A DNA stretch of 10,352 nucleotides from a virus (Duplodnaviria > Heunggongvirae > Uroviricota > Caudoviricetes), in IMG/VR virus record IMGVR_UViG_2695420596_000008, positions 1 through 10,352 of that record. The stretch is one strand, 5' to 3'. This document shows positions 1 to 6,689 of this stretch, one piece after another (within the stretch, counting starts at the first letter, position 1; every line of letters starts with the position of its first letter). The position numbers and the translations under genes are program-made. Below the pieces are notes generated by a model. It saw only the letters and a program-made list of their open reading frames with translations, did no database searches and was not told the origin of the DNA.

Positions 1-1074
1 TCATTTGTCGATTTCAATTTTGTCCCATTCCCGTCCACGGCTGTCCCTATACCGCGCCGCCATTGAATCTGATTTATGCCCGAGAAGACGTTGAGCAAAC
101 TTATCGCCAATCTGGTTCCGGTATAGCCTCGCTGACAGGCTACGCAGTTCATGGAATGTTGGCGGGTTTCCATCAAATGAGAGGCCAGATGCATTTCTCG
201 CCTTTGTAAAATACTTTGATACTGTTTTCGGGGAAAGCGGATCGTGATGCTTTGATGCGATTATAGTTTCACTGCTGCTGGCCTCCCTGCATTTCTGTAG
301 TGTATCAGCCAATGAGATATTGAGCGCGTCAATCGTTAGCGTTAGCGGAATGGCGAGTTTAGCCCCTGTTTTACTCTGTTTAATGTGAAGATGGTTGTCG
401 TTTATGTCTGACCATTTCATTCTGCACAAATCGCCGACTCTCTGCCCTGTAACGACGGCCAAATCCATCGCCAGCCTTAGCCAGATAGGGAGAGGTTCGG
501 CTGCATGGTAAATCTCGACATACTCATTAGCTGTCAGCCTTGAGCGCCTTACTTCTGACTTTGCTGTACGGGTTGCTGTTACCGGATTCGTTGCCACATG
601 CCCCTCGGCTATTGCTTCACGAAAAACGTCAACAAGGGTTGACCTGATTAATTTTGCGGAAGCTGCTTTACCTTCTGCTACGTAGGTGTTTAGCATTGCT
701 GCCACTTCTTTCGTTGATATGTCAGTGAGCGGTTTGTCCGGCAATTTTCTTCGGATTGCCCTGATTTTGCTGGCGTAGTCGAGTAGAGTTTTCGGCCTGA
801 TCCCCCTTTCGGTGAGGATTGTTTCATATCGGTCAAGCCACACATGAAGAGTGATTGCGTCACCGCCTTTAATTCTGTCTATCAGTGATTTGCGTCCGCT
901 GTCTGAGAGTAACTCAATATTGGCCTGTATTGCTTCAGTGATTGCTATCCTCCTGTCTCGGCCTAATCCAAACTCTTTACCCGTCCTTGGGTCCCTGTAG
1001 CAGTAATATCCATTGTTTCTTATATAAAGGTTAGGGGGTAAATCCCGGCGCTCATGACTTCGCCTTCTTCCCAT
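1..1074 (-). CDS. int: Lambda-type integrase (tyrosine site-specific recombinase), complete, stop codon at 1-3
   Basis: 357-aa ORF whose translation (MGRRRSHERRDLPPNLYIRNNGYYCYRDPRTGKEFGLGRDRRIAITEAIQANIEL..., C-terminal ...HELRSLSARLY...LLGH...YRD...EWDKIEI) matches lambda Int along its length as I recall it; 23-nt overlap with xis as in lambda. Confidence 0.95.
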   Translation of the reverse strand: MGRRRSHERRDLPPNLYIRNNGYYCYRDPRTGKEFGLGRDRRIAITEAIQANIELLSDSGRKSLIDRIKGGDAITLHVWLDRYETILTERGIRPKTLLDYASKIRAIRRKLPDKPLTDISTKEVAAMLNTYVAEGKAASAKLIRSTLVDVFREAIAEGHVATNPVTATRTAKSEVRRSRLTANEYVEIYHAAEPLPIWLRLAMDLAVVTGQRVGDLCRMKWSDINDNHLHIKQSKTGAKLAIPLTLTIDALNISLADTLQKCREASSSETIIASKHHDPLSPKTVSKYFTKARNASGLSFDGNPPTFHELRSLSARLYRNQIGDKFAQRLLGHKSDSMAARYRDSRGREWDKIEIDK

Positions 1075-1270
1075 TTCTGATCCTCTTCAAAAGGCTACCT
1101 GTTACTGGTCGATTTAAGTCAACCTTTACCGCTGATTCGTGGAACAGATACTCTCTTCCATCCTTAACCGGAGGAGGGAATATCCTGCACTCGCGTACCC
1201 ATCGACGAACTGTTTCAAGGCTTCTTGGGCGTCGCTGGCGTGCGTTCCACTCCTGAAGTGTCAAGTACAT
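1052..1270 (-). CDS. xis: Excisionase Xis
   Basis: 72-aa translation MYLTLQEWNARQRRPRSLETVRRWVRECRIFPPPVKDGREYLFHESAVKVDLNRPV... is essentially identical to lambda Xis; 3' end overlaps int start. Confidence 0.95.
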   Translation of the reverse strand: MYLTLQEWNARQRRPRSLETVRRWVRECRIFPPPVKDGREYLFHESAVKVDLNRPVTGSLLKRIRNGKKAKS

Positions 1271-1293
1271 CGCAAAGTCTCCGCAATTACACG

Positions 1294-1318
1294 CAAGAAA
1301 AAACCGCCATCAGGCGGC
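1294..1318 (-). terminator. Candidate intrinsic terminator on minus strand at end of orf55
   Basis: Minus-strand hairpin (g)ccgcc-tgat-ggcgg(u) followed immediately by TTTTTT (plus-strand A-run 1295-1303). Confidence 0.5.
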
Positions 1319-1477
1319 TTGGTGTTCTTTCAGTTCTTCAATTCGAATATTGGTTACGTCTGCATGTGCTATCTGCGCCCATATCATCCAGTGGTCATAG
1401 CAGTCATTGATGTTCTCTGCTTCGATAACTCTGTTGAATGGTTCTCCATTCCATTCACCTGTGACTCGGAAGTGCAT
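1310..1477 (-). CDS. Small hypothetical protein (55 aa), lambda xis-proximal orf55 homologue
   Basis: Hand translation of minus strand: MHFRVTGEWNGEPFNRVIEAENINDCYDHWMIWAQIAHADVTNIRIEELKEHQAA*; SD GGAGA 6 nt upstream of ATG; not in the ORF track because under 60 aa; same position relative to xis as the 55-codon ORF I recall in lambda. Confidence 0.5.
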   Translation of the reverse strand: MHFRVTGEWNGEPFNRVIEAENINDCYDHWMIWAQIAHADVTNIRIEELKEHQAA

Positions 1478-1719
1478 TTATCATCTCCATAAAACAAAAC
1501 CCGCCGTAGCGAGTTCAGATAAAAGAAATCCTCGTCAGTGCGAGGATGCTGTTCATTGCTGCTATACACTTTTTTGCTCTCAACGTAAGCGGTAGCTCAT
1601 TCTGTTGGGTTGGTGCAGTTGCTTTTAGGAAATGCTATTTACCCCTTAAACGTCGGCTGAAAGAGCTAAAATCCATGCAAAAAATTTACGCAATTTTGTG
1701 TATTATTGTGCAGTAAGTA

Positions 1720-2322
1720 ATGAGCTATTTTCTGCGCAAAAAATGGATGGTAAATTTGTCCGGGGCAGGAAAAATTTTATGGACGCTAAACATGAAAAAA
1801 GATTCGTATCCTTATTTGATTTGCATGACAGTTTCAGGCCTGATCTTTATTTTCCTTTTCTTCTGGTGGCGGGCAGATATTTACAGGGTCACGTTTCTTA
1901 ATCAGAGTATATCCCACTATTACATTCTGTTTAGCATGGGAATAGCTTTTCTGTTATCTCTGTTTTGGGTTAAGAAGGGGATAGTAAAACAAAGCGGCTG
2001 GAAGAGTCTGTCAGCATACCTTAAGGTTTATGCAGGGATGTGCATATTTGCTGGATTTTTTCTGATTATACCCCTTACAACACTAACTTATTTTTTGCCT
2101 GGAGAGACATCGTCTTATGTTGCACCGTATCGGTATACTTCCGGTAGTTCAAAAAGTTGTTCTGGAGCTGAGGTGGATGACCCCGATCTACATGAGAATA
2201 TTCGCATTTGCTATCCGTATGGCAATTATGAGTACGATAATATTATCTATGTTGAAAAGAAAATTAATACATTAGGTGCGGTAGTAACATATGCACAGAC
2301 CGCGCGTGATGATACTGAATGA
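1720..2322 (+). CDS. Hypothetical integral membrane protein (about 3 predicted TM helices, about 75-aa soluble C-terminal domain); accessory 'moron' gene replacing ea8.5/ea22; start uncertain (alternative ATGs at 1747 and 1792)
   Basis: 200-aa ORF on the strand opposite to all flanking early-left genes; hydrophobic stretches LICMTVSGLIFIFLFFWW, YYILFSMGIAFLLSLFWV, MCIFAGFFLIIPLTTLTYFL; visibly AT-rich compared with flanking lambda-like DNA; followed by a hairpin terminator; no convincing SD at any candidate start. Confidence 0.5.
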   Translation: MSYFLRKKWMVNLSGAGKILWTLNMKKDSYPYLICMTVSGLIFIFLFFWWRADIYRVTFLNQSISHYYILFSMGIAFLLSLFWVKKGIVKQSGWKSLSAYLKVYAGMCIFAGFFLIIPLTTLTYFLPGETSSYVAPYRYTSGSSKSCSGAEVDDPDLHENIRICYPYGNYEYDNIIYVEKKINTLGAVVTYAQTARDDTE

Positions 2323-2356
2323 GATAGTATATAGCGGGCAAGTTTTAGTTAATTTA

Positions 2357-2390
2357 TCGAGGTAATATAATTTACCTCGACTCGTTTATT
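2357..2390 (+). terminator. Candidate rho-independent terminator of the membrane-protein moron
   Basis: Perfect 9-bp inverted repeat tcgaggtaa / ttacctcga (2357-2365, 2372-2380) with 6-nt loop, followed by ctcgTTTATT; 35 bp after the ORF stop. Confidence 0.45.
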
Positions 2391-2532
2391 CTGGTATTAA
2401 TATTTCGCTTTACGATCGATTTTTATCTGATGATATCATGCGGTTTTCATATACTGACTTACTGTCTTTTCTCCGTTAGCGATTTTCTCCTGCTCAGCGA
2501 TGATTTTATCTTTGGCTTCTAGTTAATTTCGC

Positions 2533-2754
2533 TCACTTCGAACCTCTCTGTTTACTGATAAGTTCCAGATCCTCCTGGCAACTTGCACAAGTCCGACAAC
2601 CCTGAACGGCCAGGCGTCTTCGCTCATCTATGGGATCGCCACACTCACAACAATGAGTGGCAGATATAGCCTGGTGGTTCAGGCGGCGCATTTTTATTGC
2701 TGTGTTGCGCTGTAATTCTTCAATTTCTGATGCTGAATCAATGATGTCTGCCAT
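2533..2754 (-). CDS. orf73: TraR/DksA-family C4 zinc-finger protein (lambda Orf73-like)
   Basis: 73-aa ORF with CxxC-(17)-CxxC motif (CCECGDPIDERRRLAVQGCRTCASC) typical of TraR/DksA C4 zinc fingers; position between the ea22 remnant and orf61 as in lambda. Confidence 0.8.
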   Translation of the reverse strand: MADIIDSASEIEELQRNTAIKMRRLNHQAISATHCCECGDPIDERRRLAVQGCRTCASCQEDLELISKQRGSK

Positions 2755-2852
2755 CTTCCATTAATCCCTGAATTGTTGGTTAATACGCTTGAGGGTGAAT
2801 GCGAACAATAAAAAAGGAGCCTGTAGCTCCCTGATGATTTTGCTTTTCATGC

Positions 2853-3134
2853 TCACCGTTCCTTAAAGACGCCGTTTAACATGCCGATCGCCAGGCTTAA
2901 ATGAGTCGGTGTGAATCCCATCAGCGTTACCGTTTCGCGGTGCTTCTTCAGTACGCTACGGCAAATGTCATCGACGTTTTTATCCGGAAACTGCTGTCTG
3001 GCTTTTTTGATTTCAGAATTAGCCTGACGGGCAATGCTGCGAAGGGCGTTTTCTTGCTGAGGTGTCACTGAACAAGCCCCATGTCGGCAAGCATAAGCAC
3101 ACAGAATATGAAGCCCGCTGCCAGAAAAATGCAT
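2853..3134 (-). CDS. Hypothetical protein, lambda orf61-region homologue with a different reading-frame extent (93 aa here)
   Basis: ORF between orf73 and orf63; shares MHFSGSGLHILCAYACRHG..TPQQENALRSIARQANSEIKK with lambda Orf61 as recalled, then continues in frame through a T6/A6 homopolymer (3004-3009) for about 49 more codons. Confidence 0.5.
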   Translation of the reverse strand: MHFSGSGLHILCAYACRHGACSVTPQQENALRSIARQANSEIKKARQQFPDKNVDDICRSVLKKHRETVTLMGFTPTHLSLAIGMLNGVFKER

Positions 3135-3144
3135 TCAGTGGTTG

Positions 3145-3336
3145 TCATACCTGGTCTCTCTCATCTGCTTCTGCTTTCGCCACCATCATTTCCAGCTTTT
3201 GTGAAAGGGATGTGGCTAACGTATGAAATTCTTCGTCTGTTTCTACTGGTATTGGCACAAACCTGACTCCAATTTGAGCAAGGCTATGTGCCATCTCAAT
3301 GCTCGTTCTTAACTCAACAGGAGATGCTTTGTGCAT
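3145..3336 (-). CDS. orf63: Hypothetical protein, lambda Orf63 homologue
   Basis: 63-aa ORF, same length and position as lambda orf63, 28-nt overlap with orf60a exactly as in lambda. Confidence 0.75.
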   Translation of the reverse strand: MHKASPVELRTSIEMAHSLAQIGVRFVPIPVETDEEFHTLATSLSQKLEMMVAKAEADERDQV

Positions 3337-3491
3337 ACAGCCCCTCGTTTATTATTTATCTCCTCAGCCAGCCGCTGGGCTTTCAGTGGATTTTGGATAA
3401 CAGAAAGGTCGGGAAATACCCAGCCTCGCTTTGTAACGGAGTAGACGAAAGTGATCGCACCTACCCGGATATTATCGTGAGGATGCTTCAT
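3309..3491 (-). CDS. orf60a: Hypothetical protein, lambda Orf60a homologue
   Basis: 60 aa from [27 protein letters not shown]...; ATGA start/stop overlap with exo as in lambda (the track's 62-aa version starts two codons upstream). Confidence 0.75.
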
Positions 3492-4168
3492 CGCCATTGC
3501 TCCCCAAATACAAAACCAATTTCAGCCAGTGCCTCGTCCATTTTTTCGATGAACTCCGGCACCATCTCGTCAAAACCCGCCATGTACTTTTCATCCCGCT
3601 CAACCACGACATAATGCAGTCCTTCACGCTTCATACGCGGGTCATAGTTGGCAAAGTACCAGGCATCTTTTCGCGTCACCCACATGCTGTACTGCACCTG
3701 GGCCATGTAAGCTGACTTTATGGCCTCGAAACCACCGAGCCGGAACTTCATGAAATCCCGGGAGGTAAACGGGCATTTCAGTTCAAGGCCGTTGCCGTCA
3801 CTGCATAAACCATCTGGAGAGCAGGCGGTACGCATACTTTCGTCGCGATAGATGATCGGTGATTCAGTAACATTCACGCCGGAAGTGAACTCAAACAGGG
3901 CTCTGGCGTCGTTCTCGTACTGTTTTCCCCAGGCCAGCGCTTTAGCGTTAACTTCCGGAGCCACACCGGTGCAAACCTCAGCAAGCAGGGTGTGGAAGTA
4001 GGACATTTTCATGTCAGGCCACTTTTTTCCGGAGCGGGGTTTTGCTATTACGTTATGAACTTCTGAAGCTGTGATGACGCCGAGCCGTAATTTGTGCCAC
4101 GCATCATCCCCCTGTTCGACAGCTCTCACGTCGATCCCGGTACGCTGCAGGATAATGTCCGGTGTCAT
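3488..4168 (-). CDS. exo: Lambda exonuclease (Red alpha)
   Basis: 226-aa translation [65 protein letters not shown]... matches lambda Exo; 4-nt overlap with bet. Confidence 0.97.
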
Positions 4169-4950
4169 GCTGCCACCTTCTGCTCAGTGGCTTTCTGTTT
4201 CAGGAATCCAAGAGCTTTCACTGCTTCGGCCTGTGTCAGTTCTGACGATGCGCGAATGTCGCGGCGAAATATCTGGGAACAGAGCGGCAATAAGTCGTCA
4301 TCCCATGTTTTATCCAGGGCGATTAGCAGAGTGTTAATCTCCTGCATGGTTTCATCGTTAACCGGAGTGATGTCGCGTTCCGGCTGGCGTTCTGCAGTGT
4401 ATGCAGTATTTTCGACAATGCGCTCGGCTTCATCCTTGTCATAGATACCAGCAAATCCGAAGGCCAGACGGGCACACTGAATCATAGCTTTATGCCGTAA
4501 CATCCGTTTAGGATGCGACTGCCACGGCCCCGTGATTTCTCTGCCTTCGCGGGTTTTGAATGGTTCGCGGCGGCATTCATCCATCCATTCGGTAACGCAG
4601 ATCGGATGATTACGGTCCTTGCGGTAAATCCGGCATGTACAGGATTCATTGTCCTGCTCAAAGTCCATGCCATCAAACTGCTGGTTTTCATTGATGATGC
4701 GGGACCAGCCATCAACGCCCACCACCGGAACGATGCCGTTCTGCTTATCAGGGAAGGCGTAAATTTCTTTCGTCCACGGATTAAGGCCGTACTGGTTGGC
4801 GACGATCAACAATGCGATGAACTGCGCATCGCTGGCATCGCCTTTAAATGCCGTCTGGCGAAGAGTGGTGATCAGTTCCTGTGGGTCGACAGAATCCATG
4901 CCGACACGTTCAGCCAGCTTCCCTGCCAGCGTTGCGAGTGCTGTACTCAT
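4165..4950 (-). CDS. bet: Red beta single-strand annealing protein
   Basis: 261-aa translation [66 protein letters not shown]... matches lambda Bet. Confidence 0.97.
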
Positions 4951-5675: not shown

Positions 5676-6044
5676 TCAGGCGGCTTTGATAGTCATATCA
5701 TCTGAATCAAATATTCCTGATGTATCGATATCGGTAATTCTTATTCCTTCGCTACCATCCATTGGAGGCCATCCTTCCTGACCATTTCCATCATTCCAGT
5801 CGAACTCACACACAACACCATATGCATTTAAGTCGCTTGAAATTGCTATAAGCAGAGCATGTTGCGCCAGCATGATTAATACAGCATTTAATACAGAGCC
5901 GTGTTTATTGAGTCGGTATTCAGAGTCTGACCAGAAATTATTAATCTGGTGAAGTTTTTCCTCTGTCATTACGTCATGGTCGATTTCAATTTCTATTGAT
6001 GCTTTCCAGTCGTAATCAATGATGTATTTTTTGATGTTTGACAT
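5676..6044 (-). CDS. ea10: Ea10 (lambda early-left protein, reported ssDNA-binding)
   Basis: 122-aa ORF in the lambda ea10 position, between cIII and the terminator at 6063-6090; flanking DNA is near-identical to lambda as recalled. Confidence 0.75.
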   Translation of the reverse strand: MSNIKKYIIDYDWKASIEIEIDHDVMTEEKLHQINNFWSDSEYRLNKHGSVLNAVLIMLAQHALLIAISSDLNAYGVVCEFDWNDGNGQEGWPPMDGSEGIRITDIDTSGIFDSDDMTIKAA

Positions 6045-6062
6045 CTATTCATATCCTCATAG

Positions 6063-6090
6063 ATAAAAAATTGCCCTCACATCGGAGGGC
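6063..6090 (-). terminator. Rho-independent terminator on minus strand (lambda tL-type) upstream of ea10
   Basis: Minus-strand hairpin gccctc-cgatgt-gagggc (plus 6073-6090) followed by aaTTTTTT (plus A-run 6063-6070). Confidence 0.6.
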
Positions 6091-6204
6091 AAAGAAGATT
6101 TCCAATAATCAGAACAAGTCGGCTCCTGTTTAATTATGAGCGACATTTCTCCGTGTATTCACTCGTTGGAATGAATGCACAGTGCAGTGTTTATTCTGTT
6201 GTTT

Positions 6205-6234
6205 ATGCCAAAAATAAAGGCCGACTATGCGGCC
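6205..6234 (-). terminator. Candidate rho-independent terminator on minus strand after the 149-aa membrane-protein gene
   Basis: Minus-strand hairpin ggccg-catagt-cggcc (plus 6219-6234) followed by TTTATTTTTGG; lies 6 bp past the ORF stop, exactly where lambda homology resumes. Confidence 0.5.
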
Positions 6235-6239
6235 TAAAA

Positions 6240-6689
6240 TTACTTAACCAATGATGCTGCATATTCGATAAGGTAAAGCTTTGGGGCCAGCCAAATTTTT
6301 AACCAAGTCATATTGGTTACTACAGCAATAATAAAACTTACCCACAGAACAAAAACTGCAGCTAATGGTAAGATTAGAAAACTAATCTCACCGTTACTTT
6401 CCCAAATCATAGTCGGTTTGTATTTAGTCTTCCCCTTATCCCATGACCATCCTTCATCATCGAACTTACCAATTTCAACTTTTTGGCACTGTTTCTTCAT
6501 AAACCAGAAAACCAGCGGGATTGTTAAAATGGCTATTAATGTTTTAATCAGACTGTCAACCATATTCCATAGCAGTAACTGATGAACAACATCAGGAATC
6601 TGTGCCTGGCTAAATGAGACAGCCGCGTCTATTCCATTACTGGCTTTTTGCAATAGTTCTATGAGAATCTTATTTGCCTGTTCTTCCAT
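6240..6689 (-). CDS. Hypothetical two-helix membrane protein (149 aa) occupying the lambda ral/sieB slot; possible superinfection-exclusion-type protein
   Basis: ORF with SD GAGGTG upstream; two hydrophobic helices (LIKTLIAILTIPLVFWFM; ISFLILPLAAVFVLWVSFIIAVVT) separated by a charged loop (DDEGWSWDKGKTKYK); flanked on both sides by lambda-like sequence; no resemblance to lambda Ral or SieB as I recall them. Confidence 0.6.
   Translation of the reverse strand: MEEQANKILIELLQKASNGIDAAVSFSQAQIPDVVHQLLLWNMVDSLIKTLIAILTIPLVFWFMKKQCQKVEIGKFDDEGWSWDKGKTKYKPTMIWESNGEISFLILPLAAVFVLWVSFIIAVVTNMTWLKIWLAPKLYLIEYAASLVK

What the first reader, a model, noticed from the sequence alone, without database searches (positions are those of the whole stretch)
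1550..2521. ea8.5/ea22 replaced by an AT-rich, opposite-strand membrane-protein moron with its own terminator
Lambda-like sequence runs through int, xis and the 55-codon ORF, then breaks after the hairpin near 1528-1547 and resumes at about 2521. In between is a roughly 1-kb visibly AT-rich segment encoding a 200-aa protein on the plus strand, antisense to pL transcription, with three predicted transmembrane helices and a 75-aa C-terminal domain rich in Tyr/Gly/Asp (CYPYGNYEYDNIIY), followed by a 9-bp-stem hairpin terminator. Reverse orientation, foreign base composition and a private terminator are the hallmarks of a lysogenic-conversion or defence moron, and small inner-membrane proteins at such sites often act as superinfection-exclusion or abortive-infection factors.
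Basis: partly seen in the sequence, partly recalled or inferred. Interest (0 to 1): 0.65.

Follow-up and report, generated by a model that had tools for sequence, protein, structure and literature searches.

The report
Orphan membrane-protein moron of phage 434
A self-contained, AT-rich gene cassette in this lambda-like prophage encodes a real but uncharacterised 176-residue inner-membrane protein whose conserved domain should face the periplasm. The same cassette also sits in the known anti-phage hotspot of P2-like prophages, so it is a good untested candidate for blocking superinfecting phages.

Summary
Relative to lambda, homology stops at 1547 and resumes at 2521. The 973-bp segment between has 37.9% GC against 47.5% and 49.9% in the flanks, and it replaces ea8.5 and ea22. 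It is 100% identical to phage 434.

One correction: the gene is 1792..2322 (176 aa), not the 200-aa ORF from 1720. All homologues start at that Met, and the upstream extension carries stop codons in every other lineage.

The protein has three TM helices and a confident five-strand β-domain with two invariant cysteines. dN/dS is about 0.05–0.16. It matches nothing in Pfam, NCBIfam, PADLOC, PDB or BFVD, and it is not homologous to P22 SieA. The family is tiny: 61 representatives among 1.84 billion clusters, all Enterobacteriaceae.

The cassette occurs in 916 of 5,426 complete E. coli genomes, including O157:H7 Sp3 (ECs0804). It stays intact in decayed prophages. It recurs in the P2 gpA–gpQ defence hotspot in four lineages.

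Enterobacter species carry a vertically inherited chromosomal orthologue, so phages probably captured a host gene.

Moron status is well supported. Superinfection exclusion is plausible (about 0.4) but untested. No transcript or phenotype data exist.

The parts
1497..1547 (-). Two terminator-like hairpins (1497-1516 and 1528-1547) at the left edge of the cassette. Lambda homology ends at 1547. This corresponds to 't-L4' of the old 434 record.
   Evidence: Terminator scan. M60848 annotates t-L4 at record 2292-2322, which is window 1521-1551. Breakpoint from blastn. dG -10.4 kcal/mol.
1548..2520 (.). 973-bp AT-rich cassette that replaces lambda ea8.5 and ea22. 100% identical to phage 434 and present in 916 of 5,426 complete E. 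coli genomes.
   Evidence: The non-coding flanks 1548-1700 and 2323-2532 match only 434, 2B8 and mEp332 among phage records.
1546..1716 (+). 56-codon ORF annotated 'putative membrane protein' in the 434 record. Probably not a gene.
   Evidence: Both differences from mEp332 are non-synonymous. In L018 the ATG is lost and many residues change. No family hit.
1696..1715 (+). Two phased 10-bp direct repeats, TTGTGTATTA and TTGTGCAGTA, preceded by an A-run. Copy number is 2-5 in other copies of the cassette. Annotated as a CII-consensus site in 434. The regulator is unknown.
   Evidence: Only match to TTGTGYN4TTGTGY in the window, with 0.01 expected by chance. Conserved and variable in copy number across lambdoid and P2 contexts. 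434 annotation.
1720..1791 (+). Spurious 24-codon N-terminal extension of the ORF, open only in this lambdoid type. It contains the predicted promoter -10 element.
1748..1756 (+). Predicted extended -10 promoter element TGGTAAATT, 35 nt upstream of ATG 1792. Equivalent elements lie 35-42 nt upstream of the ATG in Salmonella and E. coli P2-hotspot copies and in Cedecea.
   Evidence: Comparative alignment of upstream regions. Not reported by the generic -35/-10 scan, so this is an inference, not a mapped promoter.
1792..2322 (+). CDS of 176 aa. Predicted layout: N-terminus in the cytoplasm, TM1 7-26, conserved periplasmic loop (IYRxTFL), TM2 42-59, basic cytoplasmic loop 60-77, TM3 78-101, then a periplasmic five-strand beta-domain 102-170 with invariant Cys123 and Cys140.
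2357..2380 (+). 9-bp-stem hairpin followed by CTCGTTTATT. Predicted intrinsic terminator of the cassette. The T-tract is weak.
   Evidence: In L018 one stem position changes A-T to G-T, which keeps the pairing. Not conserved outside this cassette type.
2533..2754 (-). DksA/TraR-type zinc-finger gene of the pL operon, convergent with the cassette. Lambda-type homology resumes 12 nt beyond its stop codon.
   Evidence: Pfam PF01258, E 7.7e-09. phrog_54. Breakpoint.

Best explanation
The segment is an autonomous accessory cassette (a moron) carried in the exo-xis accessory slot of a lambdoid prophage. It consists of a promoter region with phased 10-bp repeats and an extended -10 element, one 176-codon gene (1792..2322, plus strand, antisense to pL) and a hairpin terminator.

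The product is an inner-membrane protein. Its N-terminus and basic loop 2 face the cytoplasm. Its conserved loop 1 and a small beta-barrel domain, probably disulfide-bonded, face the periplasm. Conservation is concentrated in the periplasmic parts, so I infer that the protein acts at the outer face of the inner membrane.

My best guess for function: it is made in the lysogen and blocks genome entry of superinfecting phages. This would be superinfection exclusion analogous to P22 SieA, HK97 gp15 or T4 Imm/Sp, but not homologous to them. It could do this by interfering with the phage's periplasmic or inner-membrane DNA-delivery conduit, or with the inner-membrane host component that conduit uses.

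Shown: the anatomy, the coding status, purifying selection, mobility and distribution.
Inferred: the promoter, the topology and the disulfide.
Hypothesised: the exclusion function.
For: Real, selected gene:
- dN/dS is 0.05-0.16 in all measurable pairs. Between close copies there are 0 non-synonymous and 7 synonymous changes.
- 74 homologues were found, with a conserved start.
- The AF2 models are confident.

Autonomous cassette:
- Foreign GC.
- A conserved TGnTAAATT element 35-42 nt upstream of the ATG in independent contexts.
- A plus-strand terminator hairpin.
- The same promoter-plus-CDS block occurs in lambdoid prophages and in P2-like prophages. In E. coli O103 it sits beside a hitch-hiking fragment of a lambdoid ead/Ea22 gene.

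Benefit to the lysogen:
- Intact in O157:H7 Sp3/CP-933K, where int is frameshifted and bet and the immunity region are gone.
- Intact in a KplE1-like remnant among pseudogenes.
- Present in 916 of 5,426 complete E. coli genomes.

Anti-phage context:
- In four lineages it lies between gpQ (portal) and gpA of P2-like prophages.
- That interval is the hotspot holding old and tin and many validated defence systems (PMC9122126; PMC13586616).
- In K. michiganensis it lies next to an NB-ARC/STAND NTPase.

Acts at the periplasmic face:
- 17 of 69 C-domain columns are at least 80% conserved, against 0 in TM2, loop 2 and TM3.
- Cys123 is conserved in 36 of 36 sequences and Cys140 in 35 of 36.
- Loop 2 has a net charge of +2.8.

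Precedent: P22 SieA is a 162-164-aa, three-TM inner-membrane protein made from a prophage promoter that blocks DNA injection (PMC10883804).
Against: - There is no transcript, protein or phenotype evidence. The protein was catalogued only as 'hypothetical' in Rousset et al. Table S5 and was not among the systems they tested.
- It has no similarity to SieA (hhalign probability 0.2%), to any PADLOC model, to any functional PHROG, or to viral or solved structures.
- Seven Enterobacter species carry it at one syntenic chromosomal locus with host-like GC. There it diverges at about the pace of the neighbouring GGDEF gene. That is unusual for dedicated anti-phage genes and suggests a general cellular role that phages co-opted.
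- The Shine-Dalgarno sequence before ATG 1792 is weak, and the terminator T-tract is poor.
- The promoter is inferred only from conservation.
Confidence: 0.4

Rival explanations
1. It is a lysogenic-conversion or fitness factor unrelated to phages. On this view it is a host envelope protein family captured by temperate phages. Its periplasmic domain would protect or modulate the envelope, for example giving immunity or tolerance to periplasm-acting toxins or bacteriocins, antimicrobial peptides or envelope stress. This resembles how bor and lom are prophage copies of host-type envelope genes.
For: - Orthologues are vertically inherited at syntenic chromosomal loci in the Enterobacter cloacae complex, and in Cedecea and Pseudescherichia. 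They have host-like GC and an ordinary evolutionary rate.
- Chromosomal copies in Klebsiella sp. R390 and Citrobacter lie among housekeeping genes.
- The periplasmic domain is strongly conserved rather than diversifying.
- There is no defence-database hit.
Against: - The phage-borne clade sits repeatedly in a hotspot whose cargo is predominantly anti-phage.
- It has no similarity to any known immunity or stress protein.
- There is no conserved partner gene to suggest a pathway.
Confidence: 0.3
2. It is an abortive-infection effector. The three-TM protein would depolarise or permeabilise the inner membrane when triggered by an infecting phage, killing the cell before progeny are made.
For: Small membrane proteins are common Abi effectors (discussion in PMC9122126). 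The gene occurs in the P2 hotspot.
Against: - It has no associated sensor gene in any context, and its neighbours differ everywhere.
- The TM helices are the least conserved parts, and the periplasmic domain the most conserved.
- It is stably carried as a chromosomal gene in Enterobacter.
Confidence: 0.1
3. The cassette matters mainly as a transcription unit. Rightward transcription, convergent with pL, would dampen read-through into xis and int, like the C1-activated antisense promoter PaI annotated at the equivalent place in P22. The TTGY-N6-TTGY repeats would be genuine CII sites.
For: - The repeats match the CII consensus and were annotated as such in 434.
- P22 has an annotated C1-dependent antisense promoter and aI RNA just right of xis.
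- The cassette is antisense to pL.
Against: - The protein is under strong purifying selection.
- The cassette, repeats included, is kept and even expanded in P2-like prophages and in a prophage lacking pL (Sp3). There is no pL operon there to regulate, and P2-like phages are not known to encode CII; the CII point is from my own knowledge.
- The repeats lie about 40 nt upstream of the -10 element rather than straddling a -35.
Confidence: 0.07
4. It is a chance or decaying ORF with no function.
For: The annotations are inconsistent: 188 aa, 200 aa, two fragments, or a different frame. There are PGAP 'frameshifted' flags. 112-aa forms are common in draft genomes.
Against: - dN/dS is 0.05-0.16.
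- The start codon, the cysteines and the fold are conserved.
- The 'frameshifts' are annotation artefacts.
- The only real truncation seen was in one rearranged remnant.
Confidence: 0.03

Closest known systems
P22 SieA (superinfection exclusion A)
   Same: A prophage-encoded single protein of about 160-176 aa with three predicted TM helices, located in the inner membrane. It is expressed from its own promoter outside the early and late operons (PMC10883804; P22 annotation).
   Different: There is no detectable homology (hhalign probability 0.2%). SieA has a soluble loop of about 50 aa between TM1 and TM2 and no C-terminal beta-domain or conserved Cys pair. Its function is demonstrated, whereas the function here is not.
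Cargo of the P2 gpA-gpQ defence hotspot (old, tin and others; Rousset et al. 2022)
   Same: Homologues at 56-78% identity occupy exactly this interval in E. coli, Salmonella (two lineages) and K. michiganensis P2-like prophages.
   Different: The window copy is in a lambdoid prophage, not in P2. The protein was listed only as 'hypothetical' and was never tested. It is not similar to Old, Tin or any PADLOC model.
Lambda ea8.5 / ea22 (exo-xis accessory region)
   Same: They occupy the same slot between the orf55/t-L4 hairpin and the DksA-like gene. They are also non-essential accessory genes.
   Different: ea8.5 and ea22 lie on the pL strand and are part of the early-left transcript. This cassette is on the opposite strand with its own signals, and it encodes a membrane protein with no similarity to either.
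Short NfeD-type proteins (YbbJ/YuaF: three TM helices plus a C-terminal OB-fold barrel). This comparison starts from my own knowledge.
   Different: No member matches PF01957 or any other Pfam family even at E<=10. No SPFH/stomatin partner gene is adjacent in any context. The invariant Cys pair and the charge distribution point to a periplasmic barrel, unlike the cytoplasmic location I recall for NfeD.
HK97 gp15, T4 Imm/Sp, P1 Sim (entry-blocking exclusion proteins). Recalled from my own knowledge, not compared directly.
   Same: They are small membrane-anchored proteins acting at the periplasm or inner-membrane face to stop DNA entry.
   Different: No PHROG annotated for exclusion was hit. 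No direct comparison was run, and the architectures differ (one or two TM helices).

Membership tests
Moron (autonomous accessory transcription unit in a prophage) | Occupies a slot between genes that are otherwise contiguous or differently filled in related phages | tested here: met
   Lambda homology ends at 1547 and resumes at 2521. Lambda has ea8.5 and ea22 in that interval. The cassette is present only in 434, 2B8 and mEp332 among phage records.
Moron (autonomous accessory transcription unit in a prophage) | Base composition distinct from the flanking phage genes | tested here: met
   GC is 0.379 against 0.475 and 0.499. GC3 is 0.373 against 0.42-0.60.
Moron (autonomous accessory transcription unit in a prophage) | Own promoter and terminator | tested here: inconclusive
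   A conserved extended -10-like element, TGGTAAATT, was found, and a hairpin terminator. The generic promoter scan did not report it, and no transcript mapping is available.
Moron (autonomous accessory transcription unit in a prophage) | Expressed from the repressed prophage | not testable with these tools
   [not shown]
P22 SieA family | Sequence or profile homology to SieA types A-C | tested here: not met
   hhalign of the family profile against P22 SieA gave probability 0.2% and E 0.29. Only type A was tested.
P22 SieA family | [quoted passage not shown] | not testable with these tools
   Three TM helices are predicted. Localisation and any injection block need experiments.
Known anti-phage defence systems (PADLOC-DB 2.0) | Match to a defence-protein HMM | tested here: not met
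   0 families at E<=1.
P2 hotspot cargo (Rousset et al. 2022) | Located between gpA (replication) and gpQ (portal) of a P2-like prophage | tested here: met
   Met for homologues P0039, P0044, P0048 and P0055. WP_000711113 is listed in their Table S5. The window copy itself is lambdoid.
NfeD (PF01957) | Match to the NfeD C-terminal domain model, and an adjacent SPFH partner gene | tested here: not met
   No Pfam hit for any of 20 members at E<=10. No SPFH gene was called in any neighbourhood.
Class I holin (three TM helices) | Sits in a lysis cassette and has a short charged cytoplasmic C-terminus | tested here: not met
   The gene lies in the exo-xis region, in the P2 hotspot or in the chromosome. 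Its C-terminus is a folded 75-aa beta-domain with an invariant Cys pair.
PHROG 1416 (unknown function) | HMM match | tested here: met
   E 2.1e-50, but only over aa 113-200 of the 200-aa ORF against a 90-position profile. The PHROG appears to be built from truncated gene calls of this same protein, and it carries no function.

The most novel reading that the evidence does not exclude
This is the founding member of an unrecognised family of single-protein, periplasm-acting exclusion factors. They would be three-TM-anchored, disulfide-bonded mini-barrels derived from a conserved Enterobacteriaceae chromosomal membrane protein. As a promoter-plus-gene cassette they shuttle between the lambdoid exo-xis slot and the P2 gpA-gpQ defence hotspot. 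Their expression would be set by a copy-number-variable array of phased 10-bp repeats bound by an unknown regulator.
Probability: 0.3. Interest if true: 0.65.

Novelty: new variant of a known kind. Interest (0 to 1): 0.45.

Why it matters
The cassette sits in phage 434, one of the classical lambdoid phages, and in about 17% of complete E. coli genomes, including O157:H7 prophage Sp3. It has no name, no family and inconsistent annotation: four different gene models, plus false 'frameshifted' flags.

If it is an exclusion factor, it would add a new structural class to the few known entry-blocking proteins. It would also be a clean single-gene system for studying how siphovirus or myovirus genomes cross the periplasm and inner membrane.

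If it is instead a co-opted envelope factor, it is a widespread lysogenic-conversion gene in pathogenic E. coli and Salmonella. It also shows a chromosomal gene being recruited into defence hotspots.

Either way, the corrected gene model (ATG 1792, 176 aa) fixes a systematic annotation error.

Tried and rejected
- Family libraries. Pfam, NCBIfam and PADLOC gave nothing. PHROGs hit only an unknown-function family built from truncated calls.
- P22 SieA homology was rejected.
- NfeD architecture was considered and rejected on sequence and on neighbourhood.
- The 3,074-aa repeat protein P0124 from the deep search is a spurious Cys-motif match.
- Short 'variant architectures' from the deep search are fragments with junk N-termini.
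- Rfam found no RNA family in 1400-2700.
- The upstream 56-codon ORF was rejected as a gene.
- Literature searches found nothing on function. I searched by accession, by ECs and Z locus tags, by mEp332/PhiR11 and by topic.
- I could not map EDL933 Z-numbers to ORFs. I could not look up the contigs encoding the 112-aa form.
- The CII-dependent-promoter reading of the repeats was considered. I judge it unlikely to be the whole story, because the repeats persist and expand in P2-like prophages.
Full report
**1. What is there**

The window is the int-to-O region of a lambdoid prophage. Positions 1450-2650 are 100% identical to phage 434 (OL657226), 99.9% to phage 2B8 and 98.3% to mEp332. Lambda and about 300 other phage records match only the two ends.

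A direct blastn against lambda aligns 1-1547 and 2521-4149 and nothing between. In lambda that interval holds ea8.5 and ea22.

The window as a whole is not 434. Its int and xis are only 77% identical to those of 434, and it lacks 434's ORF114.

The 973-bp segment has GC 0.379, against 0.475 and 0.499 on either side. Its left edge abuts the hairpin that the old 434 record calls t-L4. Its right edge lies 12 nt beyond the stop of the DksA/TraR-type gene.

**2. The gene model**

The 200-codon ORF 1720..2322 exists, but deposited annotations disagree:
- 434 starts it at TTG 1756.
- mEp332 uses ATG 1720.
- 2B8 splits it into two fragments, although the ORF there is intact.
- The old partial record M60848 annotates 'ORF-22+' from 1779 in another frame.

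Three lines of evidence fix the start at ATG 1792 (176 aa):
- All 18 aligned homologues share that Met, and the divergent ones are 169-180 aa long.
- The in-frame extension is closed by a stop 1-18 codons upstream of the Met in every other lineage. This includes a copy with no amino-acid differences in the CDS (L018), which has a TAG in the extension.
- A conserved promoter-like element lies inside the extension.

Copies that PGAP flags as 'frameshifted' (L027, L030, L031) have intact 176-codon ORFs. The stops fall in the spurious extension.

The upstream 56-codon ORF annotated in 434 does not behave like a gene.

**3. Is it a functional gene?**

Yes.
- Nei-Gojobori dN/dS is 0.10 against the E. 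coli P2-type copy, 0.08 and 0.14 against the two Salmonella lineages, and 0.11-0.16 among those lineages. Close copies differ by 7 synonymous and 0 non-synonymous changes.
- AlphaFold2 gives a confident model (pLDDT 86.6, pTM 0.71). It has helices at 5-29, 38-61 and 70-101, then five beta-strands at 105-171.
- The C-terminal domain alone also folds confidently (pLDDT 86.9).

**4. Topology and where the function lies**

I aligned 36 full-length members, down to 17% identity.
- The C-terminal domain is the most conserved part: 17 of 69 columns at 80% or more. TM2, loop 2 and TM3 have none.
- Cys123 and Cys140 are invariant (36 of 36, and 35 of 36 plus one gap).
- Loop 2 carries the positive charge (net +2.8).

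By the positive-inside rule (established knowledge), this places the N-terminus and loop 2 in the cytoplasm. Loop 1 (IYRxTFL) and the Cys-pair domain then face the periplasm, where a disulfide can form. This is inference, not demonstration.

**5. Relatives and family size**

Word-indexed search found 74 homologues in Escherichia, Shigella, Salmonella, Enterobacter, Cedecea and Klebsiella. A full HMMER profile scan of 1.84 billion cluster representatives found only 61 hits, all with the same architecture or fragments of it.

Nothing matches in any of these:
- Pfam, NCBIfam or PADLOC.
- PDB sequences.
- Viral predicted structures.

PHROG 1416 (unknown function) matches only the C-terminal 88 residues. 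It appears to be built from truncated calls of this protein.

**6. Where the cassette lives**

(a) Lambdoid prophages. It occurs in 916 of 5,426 complete E. coli genomes, always on the chromosome and usually as a single copy.
- One is O157:H7 Sp3/CP-933K at ybhC (Sakai ECs0804). There int is frameshifted, and bet and everything to its right up to the nin region are deleted, yet the ORF is intact.
- Another is a KplE1-like remnant next to torI, where its neighbours are pseudogenes.

(b) P2-like prophages. Copies lie between the portal gene (gpQ) and gpA in E. coli (78% identity), two Salmonella lineages (70% and 58%) and K. michiganensis (56%). The co-cargo varies. In Klebsiella it includes an NB-ARC/STAND NTPase.
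- This interval is the P2 defence hotspot that holds old and tin (PMC9122126; PMC13586616).
- In E. coli O103 the cassette sits there beside a pseudogene fragment of a lambdoid ead/Ea22 gene. That is a fossil of transfer between the two phage types.
- Rousset et al. list the protein (WP_000711113) as 'hypothetical' in Table S5 and did not test it.

(c) Chromosomes.
- Seven species of the Enterobacter cloacae complex carry it at one syntenic locus next to a HAMP-GGDEF gene, with host-like GC. Its divergence tracks that of the neighbour: 83-97% against 80-97%, and 63-69% against 79-88% between subclades.
- Cedecea and Pseudescherichia share another locus.
- Klebsiella sp. R390 and Citrobacter portucalensis have further chromosomal sites.

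A neighbour-joining tree puts all phage-borne copies in one clade with the Cedecea and Citrobacter copies. The Enterobacter and Pseudescherichia clades are separate.

My reading is that this is a host membrane-protein family, one branch of which was captured by temperate phages and now moves as a cassette.

**7. Expression signals**

Upstream of every E. coli and Salmonella phage-borne copy the order is the same:
- an A-run;
- 2-5 phased 10-bp repeats of the TTGTGC type (window 1696-1715). One strain differs from its neighbour only by one extra repeat;
- an extended -10-like element, TGnTAAATT (window 1748-1756);
- a leader of about 35 nt, then the ATG.

The -10-like element is also present in Cedecea and in the 58% Salmonella lineage.

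The repeat pair is the only such match in the window, with 0.01 expected by chance. It is what the 434 annotators marked as a CII consensus site. Its persistence and expansion in P2-like prophages argue for some other, or an additional, binding factor. This is unexplained.

The plus-strand hairpin at 2357-2380 (dG -12.9 kcal/mol) is a plausible terminator, though its T-tract is weak.

**8. Mechanism**

Shown: an autonomous, mobile, selected cassette encoding a three-TM protein.

Inferred: own promoter, N-in/C-out topology, a periplasmic disulfide, and action at the periplasmic face.

Best hypothesis (about 0.4): a lysogen-expressed factor that blocks genome entry of superinfecting phages. The closest functional analogue is P22 SieA, a 162-164-aa, three-TM inner-membrane protein (PMC10883804). 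There is no homology and the layout differs.

Main rival (about 0.3): a co-opted envelope or toxin-protection factor. The vertical Enterobacter orthologues and the non-diversifying periplasmic domain favour it.

Abi (about 0.1), a mainly regulatory antisense role (about 0.07) and a junk ORF (about 0.03) are less likely, for the reasons given under the rival explanations.

**9. Novelty and verdict**

The sequence itself is known and deposited, but it is uncharacterised and mis-annotated. As a kind of thing it is familiar: a prophage moron encoding a small membrane protein. The protein family and its architecture are new to the exclusion and defence literature that I could search. I rate it 'new variant of a known kind', with interest 0.45. 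It is a solid, cheap experimental candidate rather than a surprise.

Noticed in passing
window 1696-1715; L025/L026/L027 upstream of the gene; L006/L007: There is a copy-number-variable array (2-5 copies) of phased 10-bp TTGTGC-type repeats upstream of the cassette promoter. Strain ML775 differs from strain 129 by exactly one extra TTGTGCAAAT unit. The pair matches the CII consensus, yet it is kept and expanded in P2-like prophages. The binding factor is unknown.
   Followed up: partly
L027 2617-3192, L030 407-982, L031 407-982 (complete E. coli genomes): RefSeq/PGAP annotates intact copies of the 176-aa gene as 'frameshifted' pseudogenes. The reference model includes a spurious N-terminal extension that carries stop codons in these strains.
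   Followed up: yes
L026 4285-4655 (E. coli O103:H2 P2-like prophage): A fragment of a lambdoid ead/Ea22-like gene lies next to the cassette inside the P2 gpA-gpQ hotspot, together with ParM/StbA and Plasmid_stab_B genes. This is evidence of cargo exchange between lambdoid and P2-like phages.
   Followed up: partly
L033 (JARKOR010000073.1, 'Candidatus Nanosynbacter sp.' MAG, 3.5 kb): This contig carries the cassette at 99% identity, plus the DksA-like and exo genes at 97-98%. It is almost certainly E. coli prophage contamination of the MAG bin.
   Followed up: partly
[not shown]
   Followed up: partly
cluster of P0039: P0131, P0133 (112 aa), P0138 (81 aa): Short forms of the P2-hotspot variant that begin at internal GTG or ATG codons are recorded on at least 1,000 contigs, far more than the 176-aa form. 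I could not determine whether these are gene-caller truncations or real 5' lesions. The complete genomes I checked had intact ORFs.
   Followed up: partly
window 5676-6689 (-): There is a second AT-rich patch (GC 0.36-0.39). It holds two ORFs of unknown function on the pL strand: 5676-6044 (122 aa, phrog_646) and 6240-6689 (149 aa, phrog_3054, which looks hydrophobic).
   Followed up: no
window 7483-7989 (-): Two ORFs of unknown function (42 aa, phrog_12503; 120 aa, phrog_13858) lie immediately downstream of the cI-like repressor gene (8258-8962). Lambda carries rexAB in that position.
   Followed up: no
window 1-1300: The int and xis genes are only 77-79% identical in DNA to those of lambda and 434, although the adjacent 1298-4300 is 98.8% identical to 434. 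The window also lacks 434's ORF114 between xis and orf55. There is a mosaic junction near 1298.
   Followed up: partly
window ~10130-10230 (+), within ORF 9777-10352: The O-like replication protein contains tandem peptide repeats (IPQNEGGSPKMRD, twice, plus a variant). These presumably reflect origin iterons embedded in the gene.
   Followed up: no
L022 2281-5623 (K. michiganensis P2-like hotspot): A 790-aa NB-ARC/AAA_16 STAND NTPase and a 279-aa protein with no Pfam hit lie next to the homologue. This is likely an Avs-like defence system.
   Followed up: no
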